DNA of 64,000 bases from Escherichia coli (GTDB lineage Bacteria; Pseudomonadota; Gammaproteobacteria; Enterobacterales; Enterobacteriaceae), in assembly GCF_050920415.1 (NCBI RefSeq), contig NZ_CP169309.1; one strand, 5' to 3'. Shown here one piece after another: positions 45,471-56,071 of the stretch (position 1 is the first letter of the stretch; every line of letters begins with the position of its first letter). The notes under the pieces are model-generated. The model saw only the letters and a list, made by a program, of their open reading frames with translations, was not told where the DNA came from and made no database searches. The translations under genes and the position numbers were made by a program.

Positions 45471-45493
45471 TGGGATTTTTGGTCGCACGAGAG
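45471..45493. repeat. Distal att direct repeat of the proL island
   Basis: tgggatttttggtcgcacgagag resembles tgggcgatttggtcggcacgagag at the tRNA 3' end (56281..56304). Confidence 0.55.
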
Positions 45494-45660
45494 TAGTTTA
45501 ATTGAGTGTATAACTAAATGATTTTAAATAATATTCTTTATTCAACTTTTAAATCGTATAACCAAACGTATAACTAAAATAATTTGCTGAAAAAGTGTAC
45601 AATTTCAGCAATAATTGCCCTAGCGACTATCATCCTGCTCCCCGGATTTTTTCCGGTTAA

Positions 45661-45897
45661 ATGTTAATCAGGCTGCTGGGCTTTGCCTGTTCGGTAGGTG
45701 TAATGATTATCGTAATACTTTTCCCCCAATGGGGTAAAAGCATCAACCGTAACGGAAGTCGTTATGGTTGCCTTGATGATCTGCGTGGTCATTATGACCA
45801 TTCAGCCAATGACCTTAATCAGAGCTTTTCGCTAAAAATGACGTTGGCCACTCGTCCGAAAAGCACAAAATCCCATCGATTTTTAATTAACGGTTAA
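45661..45897 (+). CDS. Hypothetical small membrane protein (78 aa)
   Basis: ORF with hydrophobic N-terminal segment (LLGFACSVGVMIIVILF); no convincing RBS. Confidence 0.25.
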   Translation: MLIRLLGFACSVGVMIIVILFPQWGKSINRNGSRYGCLDDLRGHYDHSANDLNQSFSLKMTLATRPKSTKSHRFLING

Positions 45898-46035
45898 ACC
45901 GTCTTTTTGTCACGTCGTGTCACTGGTTGTCACTCTCCGTCACGATCTCCGATAGCCTGGCTGCAAATTAAACTACGAAAATTTCGTAGTTCTGACTTCT
46001 TTCAGATAGTCGGTTGCCTGGTTACACGAAAAAAA

Positions 46036-46407
46036 TTACTTCCTGCGTTTATCCCGCTTTGTATGTCCGTGCTGAATGCCCCGCAGTGGATCTTCTTTTT
46101 TCAGGTCGATCCCCATGTCCGTTAGTGTTTTTGTGGCGGCGGTTCTTATGGCACAAATCAGGTCTCTTTCCGGTTCCCGGGTTATGGTTGCCTTCCGGAT
46201 ACATGCCGTTCGTCGTTCCGTTACATACTGACGCGCTTCATCACTTGCCGCCTGTTTCAGTAACTCACCCCAGCGATTAGCCGCCCGTCGCCATAAACCT
46301 TTCGCTTCCAGTTCTTCCGCTTTGTCATCATGCACCATAAGCATAATCCCATTGATACCTGTTAAATCTGAATGGTTGGTTTCCGTTCTTTTGATAATTT
46401 CCCTCAT
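46036..46407 (-). CDS. Hypothetical protein, possibly PerC-family transcriptional activator-like
   Basis: 123-aa ORF with LEAKGLWRRAANRWGELL motif reminiscent of PerC-type activators; start may be an internal Met. Confidence 0.4.
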   Translation of the reverse strand: MREIIKRTETNHSDLTGINGIMLMVHDDKAEELEAKGLWRRAANRWGELLKQAASDEARQYVTERRTACIRKATITREPERDLICAIRTAATKTLTDMGIDLKKEDPLRGIQHGHTKRDKRRK

Positions 46408-46750: not shown

Positions 46751-46873
46751 ATCACCAGAATGTAAATTTACATTCTGCCAGCCACCAGCTACAGAACGCA
46801 AATTTGCACTTTGCTGAAATATTAACGGGTTAGGCCAGAGTGCAAATTTGCATTATGCTTTAACTTCAGCAAG

Positions 46874-47155
46874 TTACCGCCGTAACCGCTCCGGCTTCTT
46901 CCACTGGTACGTTATTTTGGCTTTTTCCCTGTACGTCTGTATCCGGCGACGGTAGGCCAGCATTTCAAGAACGCGGATCCGTATGTCGCGCATATCCGCA
47001 TCATTAAGCTGGATACCATCACGGTGCATCACCTCAGCAACCACACGAACATAATTTTCTGCGGTCACGCTGTCCGGCTGCGTGGCCTGTTCGTCAGCCT
47101 GCTGGTTGATTCCGGCGACGCGGCGGATTAATCGCAGTAGTTCGGTTTCTGTCAT
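46874..47155 (-). CDS. Hypothetical protein (93 aa)
   Basis: ORF just downstream of the capsid-gene terminator; no recognisable domain. Confidence 0.4.
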   Translation of the reverse strand: MTETELLRLIRRVAGINQQADEQATQPDSVTAENYVRVVAEVMHRDGIQLNDADMRDIRIRVLEMLAYRRRIQTYREKAKITYQWKKPERLRR

Positions 47156-47315
47156 TGTGCCCCCATCGCGCTGGTTAAGAAAACAAGCTCAGATTTTTTG
47201 TAAAGAATCTGTCACGCTAAAAGATGTCGAACAAAAAACAACCTTCTCCATCATCTTTTTTGCATCGATTACATTAAAAACAACAGGTTACATACATGAT
47301 GATGATGACGATAAA

Positions 47316-47412
47316 ATCACAAAAATGCGCTTTTTTCCGCGCCCGCCCGCCCCGTGTTCATACCCACCCCACCAGGAGGACCCGCAAAAAAGGCGGCTGG
47401 TGCCGCCTTGTT
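47316..47412 (-). repeat. Repeated non-coding element, copy A: terminator hairpin plus GC box
   Basis: Shares a ~38-bp near-identical core (aaaaatgcgc(t/c)tttttccgcgcccgcccgccccgtg) and similar downstream architecture with copy B. Confidence 0.6.
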
Positions 47413-47413
47413 G

Positions 47414-49303
47414 TCATAGTGAATCGGTACCGCCTGATTTGACCATACCGCGATAATCCAGAGCGGCCACACCAGCATCAATACGGACTTTCCAGGCCAC
47501 ACCGTCAACGATGAAACCTTCCTGCTGTTCAAGGTAAGGCTCGTCATTGCCATCAAGATAAGCCACCTCGATTGTGTCCGTTCCCTGTGCGGAAAGCATG
47601 TACCATTGTTTTTCGCTGATATCATCAAGGCGGGGATCGACGATAATATCCAGTAGTTTGTGATACGGGTTAAAGATCCCGCTGTTTTTATCTGCCCCGA
47701 AAGGTGCGGTTGAGTTAATCATCTGCAACGCGCGATCTTCCAGTGCTGCCGGAACTAAAAGGAATTTAGGCGCAATATTCAGCACTTCGCCATTTTTGTC
47801 CTTCTGTGTGCGCATCAGGTGACGTGCTGCACTAAGTCCCGGTGTTGTCAGTCCTGCTTCAATCAGGTTGCTGTGTTTTTTGTCAAACAGCGCTATTCCA
47901 TCAGAAAGTTTTACGTTGCCTGTAAGCACCAGATTAACCAGATTTCCCACCGTTCTTGATGCTGCACGGCCCATAGCCATTGGCACCGTTGATAACTGAT
48001 CAAGGTCATCATTGATTATCGCCTGGCGGGTAATGCTGAAAATATTCCCGTAAGTAGCCAGCGCGATGGGTTCACCGCGATCGCTGGTGGTGATGTATTT
48101 ATATTCTGCCCCTTCCGGCACTTTGTTTAACGTAGAGAAACCATTCAGACCAACGCGGCGGGCTTCACGAAAGTTTGAAAGGGAACCTTTTTTCGTCCAC
48201 TGGCGGAATGTTTCGCCGCTGTGCTCCCAGCCTGCAAGCACTGATTTTTCAGCACCACCAGCAAGGATATCGGTAAAATCGCTGCTGCTGTGGTTGAATG
48301 CCGCGTTTACTATCTGCGAGCGTGTTCCGTAGCTGCCCGTGCTTATACCACGATGGGTTAATGATGCCTGTGCCATATCGAAAAGGCTCATCATGGCGTA
48401 AGGATTACCGCGTTCGGCCCGTTCGTGACCAAGACGCGCATTAAGCCCCTGGCGCATTGCATCGCCGGTTATGTTGCCGTTATCCGTGTACGCGTAGTAA
48501 AGATTTGCGGGGGTGGTTTTATTTGTTGGCGTTGATTCTTTACCCATAGCGAGTAAAAGGCGTTCGCGTGCATTCTCAACGCTACATTCTGAATCAGCAA
48601 GACAACTTATAGCCAGGTCGTTATATCTTCCGTTGAACGTGCCAAACAATTCACGGATGCCGTTAAGTCGTTCCTGTTCGCCACTGCCAGTTTTCTGGCT
48701 GATCATGCTTTTAATTTTTTCCGGCATATTTGAAAAATCTCCGATTCGTTTTGATTCAATTCGGGCCATTGCTGTAATCGCGGGTATAACCTCATCTGCG
48801 AAGCCGTTAGCCTTACACTCATTGCCATCCATCCAGGTTTCCGCCTCCATCATGGCGGTGATTTCCTGTTTGCTCCTGCCCGTTCTTCCGGCGTAGGTTT
48901 CAGCCATCGTGTCGCCCAGCTTGTCCATCAGGTCAGCAAAGCGGCGAACGTCGCCCGACACTCCGGCAGTAACACCACGGGGGGCATGTATCATCATCAT
49001 TGCGTTTTCAGGCATAACGATGTGATCGCCACACATGGCAATAAACGAGGCCATAGAAGCCGCCATGCCTTCAATGTGTACAATTTTCTTTGCCGGATGA
49101 TTTTTCAGGGCGTTATAGATAGCCAGCCCTTCAAAGATGTCGCCACCAGGTGAATGGATGCGAAGATGGATTTCAGACGCATTACCACACGCGTTGATCT
49201 CGTCAGTAAGTGCCGATGCTTTTACACCGTACCCGCCGATCTCGTCATAAATGCGCACATAGACAACATCTGCCATAGCCTTAATGGAAAACCATGTTTT
49301 CAT
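47414..49303 (-). CDS. Prohead protease (ClpP/S14-like) fused to a capsid-like C-terminal domain
   Basis: 629-aa ORF: N-terminal ~180 aa has ClpP-like motifs (GMAASMAS, MMIHAP); C-terminal ~350 aa reads as an HK97-fold major capsid protein, assigned by impression only. Confidence 0.75.
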   Translation of the reverse strand: MKTWFSIKAMADVVYVRIYDEIGGYGVKASALTDEINACGNASEIHLRIHSPGGDIFEGLAIYNALKNHPAKKIVHIEGMAASMASFIAMCGDHIVMPENAMMMIHAPRGVTAGVSGDVRRFADLMDKLGDTMAETYAGRTGRSKQEITAMMEAETWMDGNECKANGFADEVIPAITAMARIESKRIGDFSNMPEKIKSMISQKTGSGEQERLNGIRELFGTFNGRYNDLAISCLADSECSVENARERLLLAMGKESTPTNKTTPANLYYAYTDNGNITGDAMRQGLNARLGHERAERGNPYAMMSLFDMAQASLTHRGISTGSYGTRSQIVNAAFNHSSSDFTDILAGGAEKSVLAGWEHSGETFRQWTKKGSLSNFREARRVGLNGFSTLNKVPEGAEYKYITTSDRGEPIALATYGNIFSITRQAIINDDLDQLSTVPMAMGRAASRTVGNLVNLVLTGNVKLSDGIALFDKKHSNLIEAGLTTPGLSAARHLMRTQKDKNGEVLNIAPKFLLVPAALEDRALQMINSTAPFGADKNSGIFNPYHKLLDIIVDPRLDDISEKQWYMLSAQGTDTIEVAYLDGNDEPYLEQQEGFIVDGVAWKVRIDAGVAALDYRGMVKSGGTDSL

Positions 49304-49494
49304 AGCCAGGCTCCTAACGTTGCCCTGTACCAGTATTCAACCGCGCTGCGTGTGATTTGTCCTTTCGTGGGTACCGGCATACCCGGGTGATTGTCTTTGA
49401 TGAACTGCTGATAGCGTTCGATCTTCTCCATAGTTCCGGCGTCTATGTGTACCGTGGCACTTTTATCCGGCTTTCTGGTGTTGTTCTCTGGCAT
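49300..49494 (-). CDS. Hypothetical small protein coupled to the protease-capsid gene
   Basis: ORF 49300..49527; internal ATG at 49494 has a strong GGAGG RBS; stop overlaps capsid ATG (ATGA). Confidence 0.45.
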   Translation of the reverse strand: MPENNTRKPDKSATVHIDAGTMEKIERYQQFIKDNHPGMPVPTKGQITRSAVEYWYRATLGAWL

Positions 49495-49854
49495 AAATCC
49501 GCCTCCGTTTTGATTAACGGGCATCATTATTGATCGATAAAAGTAATAGATAAATCATTTTCTACCTGAAAATTAGATTATATTTTTTCTGATTATTCTC
49601 AGAGAGGCAAAGCCATTGACGCATTTTTGCTATTGAAGCAATATTAAGACTCGTCATCCTGGCGATAAAAACTCCTTTGTCGTGTAAAAGCGCCTCCGGT
49701 AACAGCAATCGAGGGCGCTTTTTTTTGCGCCTGTTTTTTTGTAAATGTTTTCGGGAACGCTCCAGTGATGAACAAAAAACAACCTGATTCGACACTAAAA
49801 ATTTTTATTCCTCAATATATCAATAACTTATAGTGGTGGTGATGGTGCCATAAA

Positions 49855-49952
49855 AATCAAAAAATGCGCCTTTTTCCGCGCCCGCCCGCCCCGTGGACAG
49901 GCCCACCAAGCCAGGAGTACCTACAAAAAAGCCGGATTGCTCCGGCTGTGTG
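49855..49952 (-). repeat. Repeated non-coding element, copy B
   Basis: See copy A; hairpin gccggattgctccggc plus GC box. Confidence 0.6.
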
Positions 49953-49965
49953 CTCACTTCTTCGG

Positions 49966-50217
49966 TTATTCTCCAGCGCTTTTAACGTTGATGGTTGTAA
50001 CCTGTTCCGCTTCGGCAATCTCCCATTCTGTCAGCGTGGCAAAGTTTGCCGCCGCTGTGGTCATGAATGCGCTTATCAGGTCGGGATGTGCTTTCGCGTA
50101 TCCTTCCCCCGTGTTGCGGTCGATGATTTTTATCGCCACTCTCAGCCAGTGCTCTGTAAGGTCAATGGCGCGGTTATGCTGCTTCTTCTGATTATTAAGT
50201 TTTCCTGATGTGCGCAT
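49966..50217 (-). CDS. Hypothetical protein (83 aa)
   Basis: ORF between the iteron array and repeat copy B; G-rich RBS-like sequence upstream. Confidence 0.4.
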   Translation of the reverse strand: MRTSGKLNNQKKQHNRAIDLTEHWLRVAIKIIDRNTGEGYAKAHPDLISAFMTTAAANFATLTEWEIAEAEQVTTINVKSAGE

Positions 50218-50249
50218 TTTTATTTTTACCCCCTCGTTTAAAAAGTTTT

Positions 50250-50500
50250 GAGTTGTGCCTCCCCTTGTCTACCTTATCTACCTTACTGGCCACCATGCCA
50301 GTAATGGCGCGGCTTTCAGTGGGGTAGAGTGCTTTTATCCACTATCTACCCCGTATCTACCTCCCTGTCTGATTCAGGTAAAATCAGGTAGAGAGGGTAG
50401 ATAGTAGGTAGACAGTAAAAAAAGGCTGTCTACCCAAGTTAATGTACTGAATTAAATGTATTTTTCTTTACTCAGGTAGACAGGGTAGACAGCCATTGCA
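50250..50500. repeat. Iteron array, putative replication origin
   Basis: At least 11 copies of GGTAGA/TCTACC in both orientations within ~250 bp, just 3' of the replication gene. Confidence 0.55.
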
Positions 50501-50505
50501 ACAAA

Positions 50506-52254
50506 TTATAAAAACGCGTCGCAATCGTCTGTTGTTATTGCGTTAGTCTGCGTTACTCCTTTAACTTTCCGCGTAATATATTCATGTCCGTAAACTTTCG
50601 CGGCTGGCTTCATAGCCTTGCCAAAGTCATTTACGTTTAGCGGTTTGCTCCTGCCTGCGTACGCCATAAACGCCAGATAGACGCGGTAAAGGCTGTTTCT
50701 GGTCGTGTACTTCACTGAATCGCCACCGCCGCCCATCATCAGGCCGCGTGCTTCCTCCAGAAAATTCAGGAACTGGCAAAACTCAATAACCGGATCCGTC
50801 TGTTGCTTTATTGCCAGTGCTTCATCACCGTCACGCTGTTCAATGAGTAAAGCCCGTGCCTTTTCAGGGTCGGCAAAGTTCGCCAGCAAGCGGCGGATAA
50901 TGACAGGGATTTCAGCCGCGATCTTTTCCGGTAGCTCCCTGTCTTTTTCTGCCTCGCTTACGATGTTATCGAACCGGAATATCACCCGACGACGTGCCAC
51001 ACCTCCGGCCCGTTCGGTGAATATCATCGGATTGTTATTGGTTGCCAGCACCACCGCCCTGATTACCGCCGTAAAACGCTTTTCATATTTCGGGTTAATT
51101 TCCACGGGGTCGCCGCCCGTGATTTTCTTGATGCCCGTTCCTTCGCCTGTATATTTCTGCTGGTCTGCCAGGACGATAAGACGACTCCCGACAACCTGCG
51201 CACGCCCACCAGCATCATCAAGCGATGTCATTTCAGCGCTTACCGTGTTTTGTTTCCCTGCCAGAAGGCTGGCTATGTGTGTGAATGTACTTTTACCGCT
51301 CCCGCCGTCTCCGGTGGCCTCAATAAACATCTGCCAGTCGTACCGGTTCGCCATAATCATGTACAGCGCGGCACATATACGCATCATCTTGCTCGGGTCT
51401 TTTCCGGCTGCGTGCTCAAGCCATTTATGAAAGTTTGGCGCGTTATCGCGGATGTTCTCCCCGGGTGCTGGTGGCGTGTACTCAATGCCGTTGTGCGTGG
51501 TGATCCAGTTCTCCGGCGTGTGCGGGGAAAATTCCCCCGTTTTCAGGTCAAGCGCACCATTGGCGAACGGCAGCAAATCGCCGGACGGCTCGCCCATTGG
51601 TTCGGCAATAACTTTTAACGCTTCCACGGCGTTATTGATTACGCGCTTGCTGAAAGTGGCCCTGTGCTCTGAATAGATAGCCACCATTTCGCGGCTCAGC
51701 TCCATTGTGCTGACCGGACACCATACCCCGCCGCGCCATACGTGAACGATTTCACTTTCAGGATGCACACAAACGCCATCAAAGCGCTCGGCAAGCAGCT
51801 GCGCGCGCTCACTGTCTGCCATTTGTGCCAGTTGCGTATTTTTCTGCTCCGGCATGGTAAGCCCTGCGGCAATATTTTCACGCTCAGCATTCAGATAGCG
51901 CCGCCAGTTTTCACACTTCTGGACGTGCATTCCTTCGGGGTAAAAATTTGCGTCCTGAATATCTGCCGCCGCCAGCTTCTGACCAATCTTTTTGGTCTCC
52001 ACCAAATCCAGTTCTCCGGCCTGGTACAGCCTTACGCGCTTTTTCCCATCCGGAACAATTTTCAGTGCATCAAGTTCGGCAAGCTGATTTGGCCCAAGCC
52101 ACACAGGCGGCACATTATCGCCGGATGCGGGGCCATCCTGCTCCTGCCATTGTTTCGCGTGCGACCAGGCATCACTACCCGCGAAAATAATTACCTCTGT
52201 GTCTTTGTGTTTTATTCCGCGTGGCTGTTTTTTTACGTTCGGTGCCAGTTTCAT
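50506..52254 (-). CDS. Replication protein: NTPase/helicase-like with Walker A motif (primase-helicase-like)
   Basis: 582-aa ORF with Walker A GDGGSGKST and a putative Walker B (LIVLAD); SF3/D5/P4-alpha-type assignment is by impression. Confidence 0.75.
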   Translation of the reverse strand: MKLAPNVKKQPRGIKHKDTEVIIFAGSDAWSHAKQWQEQDGPASGDNVPPVWLGPNQLAELDALKIVPDGKKRVRLYQAGELDLVETKKIGQKLAAADIQDANFYPEGMHVQKCENWRRYLNAERENIAAGLTMPEQKNTQLAQMADSERAQLLAERFDGVCVHPESEIVHVWRGGVWCPVSTMELSREMVAIYSEHRATFSKRVINNAVEALKVIAEPMGEPSGDLLPFANGALDLKTGEFSPHTPENWITTHNGIEYTPPAPGENIRDNAPNFHKWLEHAAGKDPSKMMRICAALYMIMANRYDWQMFIEATGDGGSGKSTFTHIASLLAGKQNTVSAEMTSLDDAGGRAQVVGSRLIVLADQQKYTGEGTGIKKITGGDPVEINPKYEKRFTAVIRAVVLATNNNPMIFTERAGGVARRRVIFRFDNIVSEAEKDRELPEKIAAEIPVIIRRLLANFADPEKARALLIEQRDGDEALAIKQQTDPVIEFCQFLNFLEEARGLMMGGGGDSVKYTTRNSLYRVYLAFMAYAGRSKPLNVNDFGKAMKPAAKVYGHEYITRKVKGVTQTNAITTDDCDAFL

Positions 52255-52550
52255 TTTTTACCCCTGAATACGTTAAGCATCTTTTTTATTTCCTGAATAT
52301 TGGCGCGTGCTTTCTCCCTGCTGGTTGGTTTACTGCGGGGCGCTGCCTGTACCAGAGAAAAATCACGCCGAAACTGATAAACAGGCATCACGCAATCATA
52401 TTCGTAGCCTTCACGACGGTAGGTGATGCGCCGTTCTGCCACGCCTTTAATCGTTACCATGCCGCCATATTTATCGCGGTAAATATCGCCGCGCGTAAAT
52501 TTAGGGTGAGTGTTGCCACTAGCAGTTAAGCCAGAAATTTTCTTTTTCAT
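52251..52550 (-). CDS. Hypothetical protein (99 aa), coupled to the replication gene
   Basis: Stop overlaps replication-gene start; basic protein. Confidence 0.45.
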   Translation of the reverse strand: MKKKISGLTASGNTHPKFTRGDIYRDKYGGMVTIKGVAERRITYRREGYEYDCVMPVYQFRRDFSLVQAAPRSKPTSREKARANIQEIKKMLNVFRGKK

Positions 52551-52566
52551 GGTTTTTATTCCGCGT

Positions 52567-52782
52567 TTATTTTTTATCGTGAATTTCGATCGCTTTATTT
52601 AATTCGGTGATTACCGTATCGAGTAATGAAATAAACGCACCAGCAAGATTAGATTCACGTTCACCTTCCGGCGCATCACTTAAACCATCAAGCCAGATAA
52701 GCAATATTTGCCGCAAGCATTCACTGTTAGTCAGTGCGTTTTCTGCATGGCTCATTAATTTAAAATAACGGTCATCATGCAT
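52567..52782 (-). CDS. Hypothetical protein (~71 aa)
   Basis: ORF 52567..52827; internal ATG at 52782 has AAGGGG RBS and sits 2 nt after the upstream gene's stop. Confidence 0.4.
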   Translation of the reverse strand: MHDDRYFKLMSHAENALTNSECLRQILLIWLDGLSDAPEGERESNLAGAFISLLDTVITELNKAIEIHDKK

Positions 52783-53011
52783 GGTGCGCCCCTTGAATAT
52801 CTGCGGTAAGAATTTTGCCTGCCTCATTCAGCGCCATATCAGCACTAAGTTGCATAACCGCCAGCGAATGAGGAACGAAAGCCCCTGCATATTCTGTTTC
52901 ACTGGTGGCGTGCTTATGCGCCATGTCAGCAATAACAGAAATATCAATAAGCGCATCCATCAGCGTTTTGATGGCTTCGGCGGCTGCGTCCGGACGGGGG
53001 TTATTGCACAT
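52775..53011 (-). CDS. Hypothetical protein (78 aa), first gene of the replication operon
   Basis: Strong GGAGG RBS 6-7 nt upstream of ATG; faces the divergent operator region. Confidence 0.45.
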   Translation of the reverse strand: MCNNPRPDAAAEAIKTLMDALIDISVIADMAHKHATSETEYAGAFVPHSLAVMQLSADMALNEAGKILTADIQGAHHA

Positions 53012-53289
53012 GGCGCACCTCCTGACGAATACGGGCGGCGAATACCATCACGCAGCCAGCCGGGGATTGCTGGCGGGCTTCCTGTTCGCTGGTGGCCTCG
53101 ATGGTAATCACGCGCGGTTGTGCCGTGCTCAGGGCGATAAAACGCCAGATGTATTTATTCAGGTTGTGCGAATCCCGCCCTTGCGGGTGTGTGGTATGAT
53201 TTCTCATAGCTGCCTCGATACTCTTTCTATCGTTGGTGGTTAGACGCCCTGCATGTGTGCCACCACTGCGGGGCGTTGCGTTTTTTGAT

Positions 53290-53347
53290 GCACACGTGTT
53301 AAGGTGTACACCTACAAAGCAAAAACATAACGCCATAGGTGTACACA
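53290..53347. promoter_or_regulatory. Operator cluster in the divergent control region
   Basis: Palindromes ACACGTGT (53293), GGTGTACACC (53303..53312) and AGGTGTACAC (53338..53346, overlapping the RBS of the plus-strand gene). Confidence 0.5.
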
Positions 53348-53541
53348 TGTCAACAGTTATTAAGCGCGATAAAAAACAAAAAGGCACAGGAAAGACCCCA
53401 CCGTTCCATATGCGTATAGTTCCTGAATTGAAGGAGCAGTTTGATAACGAAGCCAGTAACGATGGAGTAAGTCTTGCCAACTGGCTTAAAGAGTTGGGGC
53501 GCGCCGAACTAAAGCGACGCGGCATTGAACCTAAAGGCTGA
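53347..53541 (+). CDS. Small DNA-binding regulator, putative ribbon-helix-helix (64 aa)
   Basis: ATG with AGGTG RBS; HMRIVPELKEQF strand-like then helical DGVSLANWLKELGRAEL suggests RHH (assigned by impression); divergent from the replication operon. Confidence 0.45.
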   Translation: MSTVIKRDKKQKGTGKTPPFHMRIVPELKEQFDNEASNDGVSLANWLKELGRAELKRRGIEPKG

Positions 53542-53544
53542 TGT

Positions 53545-53664
53545 ATGACCGATAACAAACTTTCTCTAACAGAGAATAAACCATCAGGCTTCTTACCAAG
53601 AAAAATCCTTGATGAGATCAAACGCCGCCAGCGTAAAAAATCCAAAGGAGCAGACACGGAATAG
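53545..53664 (+). CDS. Hypothetical basic peptide (39 aa)
   Basis: Short ORF 3 nt after the upstream stop; below the ORF-track length cutoff. Confidence 0.2.
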   Translation: MTDNKLSLTENKPSGFLPRKILDEIKRRQRKKSKGADTE

Positions 53665-53667
53665 CTT

Positions 53668-53832
53668 ATGCAACAAATACCATACTGGCTTGGCTCTCTG
53701 TTTGTATTTGCATTTCTCATGAAATATTGCATTAGCAATGAACTTGTCGGTAATGAAAGTGCATGCGCGAGCGCTGAAAAAAATATTCCACTTCTCGTAT
53801 ATGAAAACGAAAGCCCTGTGAACCGCAATTGA
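53668..53832 (+). CDS. Hypothetical small membrane peptide (54 aa)
   Basis: ATG 3 nt after the upstream stop; hydrophobic N-terminus (YWLGSLFVFAFLM) then polar tail. Confidence 0.25.
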   Translation: MQQIPYWLGSLFVFAFLMKYCISNELVGNESACASAEKNIPLLVYENESPVNRN

Positions 53833-54108
53833 GCGAAATTTAATGAATTCACTCTTTGCCCACCAGCCGCAAATGTGGCATTGTTGGCGATGCTCATGCG
53901 TTGGGGATAACGTGTAGCTTGTGTCGAAGGGCCATCGTGACAGGTGGCCTTTTCTTTACCTGTTATCTGGCAATTGTGGCGCTTCGTCACACGGTTGATA
54001 TAATTCCCCTGCACTGATCCATTTTTTTCGCAGCAGGTTAATTGTTCGCAAGGGCGCTCCGGCAACGGGGCGCTTTTTGTTATGTTCATCACGTTACGCC
54101 TCACACCA

Positions 54109-54315
54109 TTACGCAGCCGTTCCGCGCGCTTCTTCCTCGCGCTCTTTCAGCCAGGCCAGCACTTCATCTTCATACCAGCCAACACGACGCAGACCGATTT
54201 TGAAGCCTTTCGGAAATTTTCCGGCGTTGATCATGTCCTGTAGCGAACTGTCTGCCTTGATGCGCAGAATATTTTTTACTTCCTGACGGGTAAGAATTTT
54301 TCTGATTGTTTCCAC
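54109..54315 (-). CDS. alpA: AlpA-family transcriptional regulator/excisionase-like protein (GTG start)
   Basis: 68-aa ORF with MerR-like HTH (LTRQEVKNILRIKADSSLQDMINAGKFPKGFKIG...); typical neighbour of P4-type integrases. Confidence 0.8.
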   Translation of the reverse strand: METIRKILTRQEVKNILRIKADSSLQDMINAGKFPKGFKIGLRRVGWYEDEVLAWLKEREEEARGTAA

Positions 54316-54384
54316 TATGTTTTACCTCGTTAATCCGGCGTATTCCGGTGATAAATACGGTAAAACAGGGCAGGGCGGGAAAAA

Positions 54385-54420
54385 CAGTACCCACCGTTTT
54401 AAAACGGTACCCACTGTTTT
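54385..54420. promoter_or_regulatory. Putative operator upstream of alpA
   Basis: acaGTACCCACcgtttt aaaacgGTACCCACtgtttt: motif repeated 20 bp apart around a central palindrome. Confidence 0.4.
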
Positions 54421-54485
54421 TTATCTTATTGATTACGCTTTTCTTTCTGCAAAAAAATAGCGACCGCAAGGGGCCGCTATTGTGA

Positions 54486-54728
54486 TTACCGTTTCCACTT
54501 CTTAGGTCGCCCACCGCATTTAAGGCTGGTGGGCCTCAGCACCTTGTCGATGCTTTCAGCCAGATTTTTCGATGCGCCACGCGAGCGCAAAAAACTGACT
54601 ACCTCGTGTTTTGTGGGGGCAGTTGATTTGTCTTCCGGATCGTACGTTGACCAGAATTCACGATTTGCCATTAAGGCCAACTGAAGGCCTTCACCATAGG
54701 CAGGGGATACCTTTTCATTGAAAAACAC
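54486..54728 (-). CDS. Hypothetical protein (80 aa) between integrase and alpA
   Basis: ORF followed by a hairpin/T-run near 54455..54480. Confidence 0.3.
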   Translation of the reverse strand: MFFNEKVSPAYGEGLQLALMANREFWSTYDPEDKSTAPTKHEVVSFLRSRGASKNLAESIDKVLRPTSLKCGGRPKKWKR

Positions 54729-54829
54729 TCGGATAACTCCTTGAATTTCAAGAGTCGGGTCTCTCTGTATATGGTGATTATACGATGGTTTAGCATGGTT
54801 TGCATCGCTTTTACTGGTTTTTTGTACAG

Positions 54830-56071
54830 TTATACGGCACGGATACCCCTTTTACCACTGGCTATGGTCACTCCGGTTGCTGCGGCCTCTACAAATTCCC
54901 CCCACCAGCGCATAAGCACCACGCGCTTTTCCAGGTAGTTACTTCGGTTATATGCTCGCCTTACCTCGTTCGTGTCCACGTGTGCGAGTGCGGCCTCGAT
55001 TACGTCCGGCTCGAATCCTTCCTCGTTCGCTGCTGTGCTGAATATGGCGCGTAATCCATGAGACACCAGCACGCCAGCGAATCCCATTCGCCGCAATGCT
55101 GCGTTGGCGGTCTGGCTGTTCATAGGCTGCCGTGGGTCTTTCAGGCTAGGGAAAACGTGCTCGCGGTGGTGGCTGATTGGCTTCATGGCCTCCAGTACCG
55201 CCATAGCCTGACTACAAAGCGGGATAACGTGATCACGCCGCATCTTCATGCGTCCGGCGGGGATCGTCCATTGTTGCGCGTCCATGTCGATTTCTTCCCA
55301 GCGTGCTGACGATGCTTCAACCGGACGGGTTACAGTCAGTAGCTGCCATTCAATCAGTAATCTGGTCTGCCGTTCTGTTGCTGATACGGATAAAGCCTGC
55401 ATAAGCTCCGGCAACTGTTCGGGGCGGATTGTTGGCATATGTTTTTTTACAGGGGAGGGGAACGCCTTACGCACATTCATAGCCGGATTGGCATCAATCA
55501 GCCCACTGTTGGCGGCGTAATCCATTACCTCATTAACGCGCTGTAAAACCCGCTTGAGTGTTTCCAGGTTGCCGCGCTCCTTGATGGGTGTAAGCACCTC
55601 AACGAACCTTCGGGCAGTGAGGGTATCTATTGGCGTGTTGCCGATGAACGGGAATACATATTTATCCAGCGAACGCCAGATGTCTTTAATCGTGTTGGGG
55701 GCCAGATTCTGGCTGATTTTCACCTGGTACCATGCCGCCGCCACATTTTCGAACGTGTTCCCTTGTCTTCGGGCCTCTGCCTCTCGTTTTTTCTTCTCAT
55801 GGTCCTGCGGGTCAGTTCCGGCACTGATTAACGTCCTGTACTCGCTACGGCGTTTTCTGGCATCAGCCAGGGAAACATCTTCAAGAGATCCAAAACTCAG
55901 CAATATTCTTTTTTTGTCCGATGGTCGGTAGTAGGAAAATCGCCAGAGTTTTGATCCGGACGGTTTTACCAGGAGAAAAAGCCCACCGCCGTCCTGTAGG
56001 GTGTACTCCTTTTGCGCTGGTCTGGCTGCTTTGATCTGCACTGTGGTTAATGGGGGTGTTTTTCTCGCCAT
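54830..56071 (-). CDS. int: Tyrosine site-specific integrase (P4-type)
   Basis: ORF 54830..56089; start placed at MARKTPPLTT; N-terminal arm-binding-like domain and catalytic HGLR...LAH...Y. Confidence 0.9.
   Translation of the reverse strand: MARKTPPLTTVQIKAARPAQKEYTLQDGGGLFLLVKPSGSKLWRFSYYRPSDKKRILLSFGSLEDVSLADARKRRSEYRTLISAGTDPQDHEKKKREAEARRQGNTFENVAAAWYQVKISQNLAPNTIKDIWRSLDKYVFPFIGNTPIDTLTARRFVEVLTPIKERGNLETLKRVLQRVNEVMDYAANSGLIDANPAMNVRKAFPSPVKKHMPTIRPEQLPELMQALSVSATERQTRLLIEWQLLTVTRPVEASSARWEEIDMDAQQWTIPAGRMKMRRDHVIPLCSQAMAVLEAMKPISHHREHVFPSLKDPRQPMNSQTANAALRRMGFAGVLVSHGLRAIFSTAANEEGFEPDVIEAALAHVDTNEVRRAYNRSNYLEKRVVLMRWWGEFVEAAATGVTIASGKRGIRAV

What the first reader, a model, noticed from the sequence alone, without database searches (positions are those of the whole stretch)
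45905..45990. Four GTCAC repeats at exact 10-bp phasing plus a 17-bp palindrome
tGTCAC at 45909, 45919, 45929 and 45939 (one helical turn apart), followed by palindrome ctacgaaaatttcgtag (45973-45989), between convergent ORFs and overlapping a weak 72-aa ORF call. The phasing suggests cooperative binding on one DNA face.
Basis: seen in the sequence. Interest (0 to 1): 0.45.

Follow-up and report, generated by a model that had tools for sequence, protein, structure and literature searches.

The report
Phased GTCAC box array in satellite island
Four exactly phased GTCAC boxes are a real, conserved, non-coding module carried by many E. coli phage-satellite islands (PICIs), almost certainly a landing pad for a still unidentified DNA-binding protein, while the neighbouring palindrome is a separate piece belonging to the adjacent perC cassette.

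Summary
GTCAC occurs at 45909, 45919, 45929 and 45939, and a perfect 21-nt palindrome lies at 45971-45991.

The window holds a ~10.8-kb E. coli phage-inducible chromosomal island (PICI) at tRNA-Pro. The array lies ~415 bp inside its int-distal end, in the accessory region after the last core gene (p93).

- **Conservation.** The same array, with 4 or 5 boxes, recurs in at least three other PICI types. The first four boxes never vary, 5 of 15 spacer sites do, and indels are whole 10-bp units.
- **Distribution.** It is present or absent independently of integrase, AlpA, replication protein and packaging module.
- **Excluded roles.** It is not the island's origin, not integrase or excisionase sites, not a cos site and not coding.
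- **Closest look-alikes.** These are the origin repeats inside O-like replication-initiator genes of lambdoid prophages: same box, same 10-bp phase, 4-7 copies, found in 41% of E. coli genomes.

My best guess, at low confidence, is a portable binding platform or decoy for such a phage initiator. The palindrome assorts separately and is probably the perC 3' hairpin.

The parts
45909..45943 (+). Array of four GTCAC boxes at an exact 10-bp period (tGTCACg, tGTCACt, tGTCACt, cGTCACg). Relatives in which the array abuts p93 have a fifth, less conserved box.
45890..45908 (+). Hairpin ACGGT-TAA-ACCGT plus CTTTTT. This is the conserved left edge of the module (ACCGTCTTTT+), probably an intrinsic terminator for the small plus-strand ORF. 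A C-to-T change in L319/L320 keeps a G.U pair.
45764..45835 (+). Conserved 23-aa hydrophobic small ORF (MVALMICVVIMTIQPMTLIRAFR) lying to the left of the array in this flank variant. It is absent from the other flank variant, so it is not required for the array.
45971..45991 (-). Perfect 21-nt palindrome, a separate module. On the minus strand it forms a 10-bp hairpin (-10.3 kcal/mol) followed by UAAUUUG, 45 nt after the perC stop codon. It is probably the perC cassette's 3' hairpin or a weak terminator.
46036..46407 (-). PerC-family regulator gene, an accessory cassette inserted between p93 and the array.
46874..47155 (-). p93, the last core gene of the island (PHROG 1561, no Pfam domain, helical). 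Every array found lies 56-979 bp from this gene in the same relative orientation.
45481..45578 (.). Int-distal island end: att core repeat (~45481-45494, matching the tRNA-Pro 3' end at 56290-56305) and three GTATAACTAAA integrase arm-type repeats (45508, 45556, 45568). Context used to reject the integrase-site reading.
50260..50495 (-). The island's own PICI-type origin: CTGTCTACC-type iterons in sets flanking an AT-rich stretch, immediately 3' of the primase gene. Context used to reject the own-origin reading.
   Evidence: organisation as described in PMC6092414

Best explanation
The array is a portable, non-coding protein-binding module. It sits in the accessory-gene hot spot of E. coli PICI satellites, between the last core gene (p93) and the int-distal att site.

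Shown:
- It is a discrete unit that is present or absent between conserved flanks.
- Its boxes and its 10-bp phase are conserved while its spacers drift.
- Its presence does not track any island-encoded integrase, AlpA, replication protein, packaging module or p93 clade.

Inferred: four to five copies of one protein bind head-to-tail on one face of the helix, and that protein comes from outside the island.

Most likely partner: the origin-binding domain of the O-like (DnaT-domain) replication initiators of lambdoid prophages. Their presumed origin repeats have the same box ((T/C)GTCAC(G)), the same 10-bp phase and 4-7 copies, and these genes are in 41% of complete E. coli genomes. On this reading the array works as an origin-repeat mimic. 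Once the island is amplified, it either soaks up the initiator of such phages or recruits it to the island.

How likely: that the array is a protein-binding platform, about 0.75; that the partner is a phage initiator, about 0.3.

The palindrome is not part of this module.
For: - **Phasing beyond chance.**
- **Same array in other PICI types.** It occurs in a RepA-helicase PICI at proL, an EcCICFT073-like PICI at ycfD/phoQ, and capsid-forming PICIs at yifB, phoQ and clpS.
- **Box conservation.** In loci retrieved via p93 homology or BLAST, 0 of 20 box sites vary against 5 of 15 spacer sites. Whole-unit 10-bp indels occur.
- **Precise presence/absence.** The array is missing between retained flanks in L138, L175 and L186.
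- **Independence from island modules.** Presence does not depend on packaging or replication type or on p93 clade. AlpA and Int are only 25-29% identical among array-bearing islands.
- **Single cluster.** There is one cluster per island.
- **Similarity to phage origin repeats.** Of 120 phased GTCAC x4 arrays in IMG/VR, 64 lie inside O-like initiator genes. They have 4-7 copies, mostly at 10-bp spacing, with a pyrimidine before the box. That gene is present in 2201 of 5426 E. coli genomes.
Against: - No binding data exist, and the partner is inferred from motif resemblance only.
- The base after the box differs: G in 67% of phage units, against T 53% and G 35% in the satellite arrays.
- The satellite array is not inside or beside an initiator gene and has no obvious unwinding tract.
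- HK106 is a proven helper of the capsid-forming PICI EcCIEDL933, and the O157:H7 island L311, which I take to be its counterpart, carries the array. HK106 has no phased GTCAC anywhere. Its origin repeats are TTGTCCAACGG, and its initiator is of another type.
- Phased GTCAC arrays also occur in other roles, for example upstream of terS next to late activators in Firmicutes phages. The motif alone is therefore not diagnostic.
- About half of p93-bearing islands lack the array, so any function is dispensable.
- The family is young, so the conservation statistics rest on few substitutions.
Confidence: 0.3

Rival explanations
1. The array is an operator, activator site or roadblock for a host or island-encoded transcription factor. 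It would act on transcription at the island end: the small hydrophobic ORF, read-through from the late operon towards att and int in the excised circle, or an antisense RNA. The last box, read as GTGACA on the minus strand, could serve as a -35 element.
For: - The array lies between the 3' end of the operon and a plus-strand hairpin with a T-run.
- Tandem 10-11-bp direct repeats are the normal site architecture of winged-helix regulators (OmpR/PhoB class, established knowledge). The boxes resemble the PhoB half-site CTGTCA(C/T).
- In Firmicutes phages similar arrays lie next to late-activator genes.
- A GTGACA-17 nt-TTAATT arrangement is visible in the sequence.
Against: - No promoter was called here by the consensus scan.
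- The neighbouring small ORF is missing in the second flank variant, which still keeps the array.
- No island regulator is shared among array-bearing islands apart from p93, and p93 does not co-vary with the array.
- The period is 10 bp with non-AT spacers, not the 11-bp Pho-box layout.
Confidence: 0.2
2. The array has no binding function. It would be a leftover or a recombination-junction sequence that hitch-hikes in the conserved flank used for exchanging accessory cassettes between islands.
For: - At least four different sequences join directly after the fourth box (GATCT, GATTG, GCTGT, GGTAT), and flank variants are shuffled.
- The region is a patchwork of decaying repeats and cassette-boundary units.
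- The array is dispensable.
Against: - Boxes are invariant while spacers vary (p about 0.009).
- Indels keep the 10-bp register.
- There is no DNA or protein homology to phage initiator genes beyond the boxes.
Confidence: 0.2
3. The array is a packaging recognition site, a cosB- or pac-like platform for a small terminase ring. It would be acquired so that an extra helper phage can package the island.
For: - It lies just after the morphogenesis and packaging genes, near the island end.
- Multi-site phased arrays suit ring-shaped small terminases (established knowledge).
- EcCICFT073 is known to carry two cos sites (PMC6092414, PMC6739421).
- Some phage GTCAC arrays lie upstream of terS.
Against: - No lambda-type cosN or cosQ is nearby. 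The real EcCICFT073 cos sites lie upstream of rpp and look different.
- Presence does not follow packaging type, and 6 of 15 capsid-forming PICIs with enough downstream sequence to score lack the array.
- HK106 has no such array.
- Neither the array nor p93 matches anything in the 50,697 phage records.
Confidence: 0.1
4. The boxes are integrase arm-type sites or excisionase (AlpA) sites of the island's attachment region, which is.
For: - The lambda Int arm-site consensus C/AAGTCACTAT contains GTCAC (from memory, not tested).
- Excisionases bind phased direct repeats.
- The array is on the int-distal arm side.
Against: - The array lies 415 bp from the core here and 330-700 bp in relatives.
- The same array serves islands with unrelated Int and AlpA proteins and different att sites.
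- Clear arm-type repeats lie next to the cores: GTATAACTAAA at both ends here, ACTACACC in other islands.
- Separate 3-copy phased repeats (TCACCGGA here, CGAACAA elsewhere) also lie next to the cores.
Confidence: 0.03
5. The array is part of a protein-coding gene, either the 72-aa ORF in the window or the 111-aa hypothetical protein annotated across the array in NZ_CP159170.
For: One reading frame stays open across the array in several variants.
Against: - 10-bp unit indels and variable T-run length break the frame.
- The sequence after the fourth box is replaced in relatives.
- NCBI's annotation pipeline (PGAP) calls nothing here in most genomes.
- Substitutions are not codon-periodic.
Confidence: 0.02

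Closest known systems
Presumed origin repeats inside O-like (DnaT-domain, PHROG 1408/3729/21423) replication-initiator genes of lambdoid prophages
   Same: Same pentamer box, preceded by a pyrimidine. Same 10-bp phase, 4-7 direct copies, same host species.
   Different: The phage arrays lie inside the initiator gene and are followed by a purine-rich tract. The satellite array is intergenic, has no initiator gene nearby, and mostly has T rather than G after the box. That the phage arrays are origin repeats is itself an inference by analogy with lambda ori inside gene O.
PICI/SaPI replication origin (short iterons in two sets around an AT-rich region, 3' of pri-rep; PMC6092414)
   Same: Short direct repeats in a satellite island.
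   Different: This island has exactly such an origin elsewhere (50260-50495). The GTCAC array is a single set, 4.4 kb away, and is shared by islands with three unrelated replication proteins.
cosB R-sites of lambda and the Rpp-dependent cosB of EcCICFT073 cos1 (PMC6739421)
   Same: A multi-site protein platform near a satellite's packaging genes.
   Different: There is no cosQ or cosN, no sequence similarity to the published cos1 and cos2, and the array does not depend on rpp or terminase content.
Integrase arm-type and excisionase site arrays (lambda P'1-3, L5 Xis X1-X4, P2 Cox boxes)
   Same: Phased head-to-tail direct repeats, one helical turn apart, near an att site.
   Different: Variable and large distance from the core, not specific to one integrase or AlpA type, and the true arm and excisionase-type repeats are identifiable elsewhere.
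Tandem half-sites of OmpR/PhoB-family response regulators (Pho box CTGTCATAWAWCTGTCAY)
   Same: TGTCA(C/T) direct repeats bound head-to-tail.
   Different: The Pho box has an 11-bp period with AT-rich 4-bp spacers. Here the period is 10 bp with GC-containing spacers. This comparison rests on memory plus direct reading of the sequence.

Membership tests
PICI/SaPI-type origin of the island's own Rep | Lies immediately 3' of the pri/rep gene | tested here: not met
   The array is 4.4 kb from the primase gene. A typical iteron/AT-rich origin sits at 50260-50495, directly after the primase gene.
PICI/SaPI-type origin of the island's own Rep | Iteron sequence goes with the Rep protein type | tested here: not met
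   The same array occurs with primase, RepA-helicase and DUF927 replication proteins, and is absent from other islands of each type.
Integrase arm-type / excisionase sites | Fixed geometry relative to the att core | tested here: not met
   The distance from the core is about 415 bp here and 330-700 bp in L002-L004.
Integrase arm-type / excisionase sites | Specific to one integrase/excisionase lineage | tested here: not met
   Int and AlpA are 25-29% identical between array-bearing islands. Other repeats fill this role.
cos/pac packaging site | Adjacent nicking site (cosN/cosQ), or location at or upstream of terS | tested here: not met
   No cosN-like sequence lies near the array. The published PICI cos1 and cos2 are upstream of rpp and dissimilar.
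cos/pac packaging site | Present in all members that use a given packaging machinery | tested here: not met
   The array is present or absent within each packaging class.
Origin repeats of O-like phage initiators (GTCAC type) | GTCAC box, ~10-bp period, 4-7 direct copies | tested here: met
   phage units are at 10-bp spacing in 166 of 198 intervals with 4-7 copies. Satellite units are at 10 bp in 60 of 60 intervals with 4-5 copies.
Origin repeats of O-like phage initiators (GTCAC type) | Embedded in the initiator gene and followed by an unwinding tract | tested here: not met
   The array is intergenic. No O-like coding remnant lies around it and the island encodes no O-like domain.
Origin repeats of O-like phage initiators (GTCAC type) | Bound by the initiator protein | not testable with these tools
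   Needs EMSA, footprinting or ChIP.
Protein-coding sequence | Reading frame and codon-periodic conservation kept across relatives | tested here: not met
   10-bp indels, variable T-run length and replaced downstream sequence.
Structured RNA | Match to a known family or a stable conserved fold | tested here: not met
   No Rfam match at E<=1. The array region does not fold better than shuffles in L002 (z -0.04 and -0.5). The window's z of about -2 comes from the two flanking hairpins.
Intrinsic terminator (for the palindrome only) | Stable hairpin followed by a U-run, downstream of a gene | tested here: inconclusive
   The minus-strand hairpin is -10.3 kcal/mol (z -3.1), lies 45 nt after the perC stop codon, and is followed by UAAUUUG, an interrupted U-run. 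The stem is AT-rich. The consensus scan did not call it.

The most novel reading that the evidence does not exclude
The array is a DNA decoy carried as satellite cargo: a mimic of the origin repeats of a very common class of lambdoid-phage replication initiators. When the island excises and amplifies, the array would titrate or capture that initiator. This would either block replication of competing phages or let the island be replicated by them. It would be an anti-phage or hijacking accessory made of binding sites rather than a gene.
Probability: 0.2. Interest if true: 0.8.

Novelty: new variant of a known kind. Interest (0 to 1): 0.45.

Why it matters
PICIs are intensively studied, and this module sits in islands of the EcCIEDL933 type and the EcCICFT073 type. 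I found no mention of it in the PICI papers I read.

It is a clean candidate cis-element in the region where these islands keep their accessory and anti-phage cargo. If its partner is a phage replication initiator, it would be a non-coding form of phage-satellite interference, or a way of exploiting helper phages, and it is easy to test.

Even if the partner proves to be a host regulator, the work separates several features at the island end that could be confused: attachment-site repeats, the island's origin, cos sites, the perC hairpin and the GTCAC array.

Tried and rejected
- **Own-origin reading.** Rejected after finding the canonical origin next to the primase gene.
- **Cos-site reading.** I first thought the repeated units after p93 resembled lambda cosN. 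The published EcCICFT073 cos1 and cos2 sequences show that the real sites are different and lie upstream of rpp. No cosN was found near the array.
- **p93 as the binder.** It has no PDB sequence match and no Pfam domain. The AlphaFold model is moderate (pLDDT 72, three helices) and has no meaningful fold match. p93 clades do not track the array.
- **p93 as Rpp.** Rejected: the published RppA sequence is unrelated, and the rpp gene is the one annotated 'terminase small subunit'.
- **Known RNA.** Rfam found nothing.
- **Phage origin of the module.** Neither p93 nor the array region matches the 50,697 phage records.
- **Wider taxonomic spread.** A scan of one genome per species found only 6 unrelated arrays, so the family is essentially confined to E. 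coli strains.
- **Helper link.** HK106 has no phased GTCAC, and its initiator is of a different type.
- **Relic of an O gene.** No homology beyond the boxes.
- **MatP matS, CRP and Pho box.** Rejected on site geometry by direct reading of the sequence.
- **Palindrome as a phage operator.** The 19-mer in large prophages lies inside Rha/Ant-like genes, where it encodes YE(N/I)FVV. Those matches come from selecting on the exact 19-mer and say nothing about a shared site.

Full report
**1. Observation**

- GTCAC starts at 45909, 45919, 45929 and 45939, exactly 10 bp apart.
- The phased pattern occurs once in the window even with two mismatches allowed, and never in 100 shuffles. The pentamer itself is not enriched: 102 found against 107 expected.
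- The preceding base is T, T, T, C.
- The palindrome is a perfect 10+1+10 structure at 45971-45991.

Both parts of the observation are real.

**2. Context**

- The window is E. coli. The segment matches complete genomes at 99% identity. Annotation of the best match shows a ~10.8-kb island between yejO and tRNA-Pro/yejM.
- Gene order, running from tRNA-Pro back towards the array, is: integrase, AlpA-like HTH, Icd-like, DUF4222, primase, a ClpP-protease/major-capsid fusion, a 93-aa protein (here called p93), a 99-aa gene, and perC.
- The att core repeat is at ~45481-45494 and 56290-56305. GTATAACTAAA repeats sit at both ends and are read as integrase arm-type sites. TCACCGGA repeats are phased next to the tRNA core.
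- Directly 3' of the primase gene lies a textbook PICI origin: CTGTCTACC iterons around an AT-rich stretch at 50260-50495. This is the arrangement described for Gram-negative PICIs in PMC6092414.
- The element is therefore a phage-inducible chromosomal island. The array lies ~415 bp inside its int-distal end.

**3. Comparative evidence**

- *The array is a separate BLAST module.* Many genomes match only query positions 39-85, which is the array with its left edge. Others match only the palindrome.
- *The same array occurs in other island types.* These are a RepA-helicase PICI at the same site (L002), an EcCICFT073-like island at ycfD/phoQ that carries the gene annotated terminase small subunit, which I take to be rpp (L003), and capsid-forming PICIs at yifB, phoQ and clpS, including an O157:H7 island that I take to be the EcCIEDL933 type (L004, L311, L319).
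- *Box number depends on position.* Where the array directly abuts p93 there are five boxes. Where accessory DNA is inserted there are four, and the sequence diverges right after the fourth box in at least four different ways.
- *Link to p93.* All 22 array loci examined have p93 within 56-979 bp in the same relative orientation.
- *The array is dispensable.* About half of the p93 loci with enough downstream sequence lack any array. In L138, L175 and L186 the flanks are kept and the boxes are missing.
- *Independence.* Presence is independent of packaging type, replication-protein type and p93 clade.
- *Island proteins diverge.* Among array-bearing islands, AlpA and Int are 25-29% identical and the YlcI-like protein 22-61%. 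Only p93 stays at 73% or above.
- *Box conservation.* In loci retrieved independently of the boxes and anchored on the flank ACCGTCTTTT, the first four boxes are invariant (0 of 20 sites) while 5 of 15 spacer sites vary (Fisher p = 0.009). The fifth box is sometimes GTCGC or GCCAC. Two variants have lost exactly one 10-bp unit.
- *Not coding.* The 10-bp indels, variable T-run length and replaced downstream sequence exclude a coding role.
- *Not RNA.* Rfam finds nothing, and the array has no RNA fold of its own.

**4. What it is not**

- *Not the island's origin.* That lies elsewhere, and the array ignores replication-protein type.
- *Not integrase or excisionase sites.* The distance to the core varies, the array is shared by unrelated Int and AlpA proteins, and true arm-type and excisionase-type repeats lie next to the cores. 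In other islands these include a CGAACAA x3 array beside the ACTACACC arm sites.
- *Not a cos site.* There is no cosN. The published EcCICFT073 cos1 and cos2 lie upstream of rpp and look different. The array is also independent of packaging type.

**5. What it resembles**

- After an iterative profile search, 64 of these arrays lie inside O-like replication-initiator genes: PHROG 1408/3729/21423, with a C-terminal DnaT domain. They are at codons ~45-70 and are followed by purine-rich tracts. This layout is expected of lambdoid origins, by analogy with lambda ori inside gene O.
- These arrays have 4-7 units, mostly at 10 bp, with consensus (A/G)(C/T)GTCACG.
- The E. coli version of this gene is in 2201 of 5426 complete genomes.
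- The satellite units read T(T/C)GTCAC(T/G). The box, phase, copy number and preceding pyrimidine are the same. The following base differs.
- No further homology exists between the two kinds of array, and the islands encode no O-like domain.
- Other phased GTCAC arrays lie upstream of terS next to late-activator genes in Firmicutes phages, or between TerL and portal genes. The motif is therefore not unique to origins.
- HK106 helps the capsid-forming PICI EcCIEDL933 (bioRxiv 10.1101/2022.09.08.507074). It has no phased GTCAC, and its origin repeats are TTGTCCAACGG. The array is thus not needed for that helper relationship.

**6. Interpretation**

- The data show a dispensable, independently assorting, non-coding module whose boxes and phase are under constraint. 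That is the signature of a multi-copy protein-binding site.
- No island protein tracks the array, so the binder is most likely external: a phage or host protein.
- The only other E. coli sequences with the same box, phase and copy number are the presumed origin repeats of a very common prophage initiator.
- I therefore favour, at about 0.3, an origin-repeat mimic that captures or titrates that initiator. It is located where PICIs keep accessory and anti-phage cargo.
- Rivals, with my estimates:
  - an operator, activator site or roadblock for a host or island factor (0.2);
  - a functionless junction sequence (0.2);
  - an extra terminase recognition site (0.1);
  - Int or AlpA sites (0.03);
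  - coding sequence (0.02).

**7. The palindrome**

- It assorts separately. It lies on the other side of the array in L002, inside a longer insert in L003, and in array-less islands.
- On the minus strand it is a 10-bp hairpin (-10.3 kcal/mol, z -3.1), 45 nt after the perC stop codon, followed by UAAUUUG. It is probably a weak terminator or 3' stabiliser of the perC cassette.
- The same 19-mer occurs inside Rha/Ant-like genes of large prophages, where it encodes YE(N/I)FVV. This most likely reflects selecting on the exact 19-mer, or an old recombination source.

**8. Verdict**

- The 'cooperative binding on one face' reading is supported in general, but not for AlpA or integrase.
- The array and the palindrome are two separate things.
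- I found no mention of the array in the PICI papers I read.
- Its mechanism remains inferred.

Noticed in passing
window 45764-45835 (+), with hairpin and T-run at 45890-45908: A 23-aa hydrophobic small ORF (MVALMICVVIMTIQPMTLIRAFR) is conserved at the amino-acid level in 18 sequence variants, some truncated or fused. It looks like a type I toxin or a small membrane peptide and has its own terminator-like hairpin. PGAP does not annotate it.
   Followed up: partly
window 46782-54909 (the island): There are nine Chi sites (GCTGGTGG) in the ~10.8-kb island, on both strands. The whole 64-kb window has 21 against about 2.4 expected by chance. Chi also sits in the conserved block left of the array in relatives (L002, L003).
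   Followed up: partly
window 46775-46875 (minus strand), and downstream of p93 in L125-L204: Repeated 'cassette-boundary' units copy the 3' end of p93 (GGTAACT(T/C)G(C/T)TGATATT...). Each is followed by a short hairpin of the form xxxAAATTTxxx whose stem letters vary but stay complementary. Islands carry 2-5 of them, flanking accessory genes.
   Followed up: partly
window 50260-50495: The island's origin: CTGTCTACC-type iterons in both orientations around an AT-rich stretch, directly after the primase gene.
   Followed up: yes
window 56100-56290 and 45508-45578: Attachment-site anatomy. GTATAACTAAA arm-type repeats lie at both ends, in both orientations on the int side. Three to five TCACCG(G/A)A repeats at 10-11-bp spacing abut the tRNA-Pro 3' end and are candidate excisionase (AlpA) sites.
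   Followed up: partly
L144 and L157, about 640-1100 bp downstream of p93: In islands of another integrase type, a CGAACAA x3 array at 10-bp spacing sits directly beside the ACTACACC arm-type repeats. It is a likely excisionase site array and a useful contrast to the GTCAC module.
   Followed up: no
L013 6030-6100, and 63 other IMG/VR loci: Phased (T/C)GTCACG repeats (4-7 copies, 10-bp period) lie inside O-like/DnaT-domain initiator genes of phages from Escherichia, Pseudomonas, Aeromonas, Ralstonia and cyanobacteria, followed by purine-rich tracts. They appear to be a widely conserved origin code.
   Followed up: partly
L021 4532-4590 (also L039, L044, L075, L083, L106, L112, L117): TGTCACCGTT x4-6 arrays lie in the short gap between the terminase large-subunit gene and the portal gene, on GC-rich 8-17-kb contigs. 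Their function is unknown.
   Followed up: no
L321 (NZ_CP049201.1 2857498-2859945): An array-bearing PICI end lies next to a P2-like baseplate V gene. This looks like a helper-embedded PICI of the kind described in PMC10111431.
   Followed up: no
L318 (phage HK106) 32680-32780: HK106 origin repeats TTGTCCAACGG, x3 plus x3 at an 11-bp period, lie inside replication gene gp51.
   Followed up: yes
L208-L291 (prophage contigs of 40-50 kb): The 19-mer ACTACGAAAATTTCGTAGT lies inside Rha/Ant-like antirepressor genes, where it encodes the conserved peptide YE(N/I)FVV in either orientation variant.
   Followed up: partly
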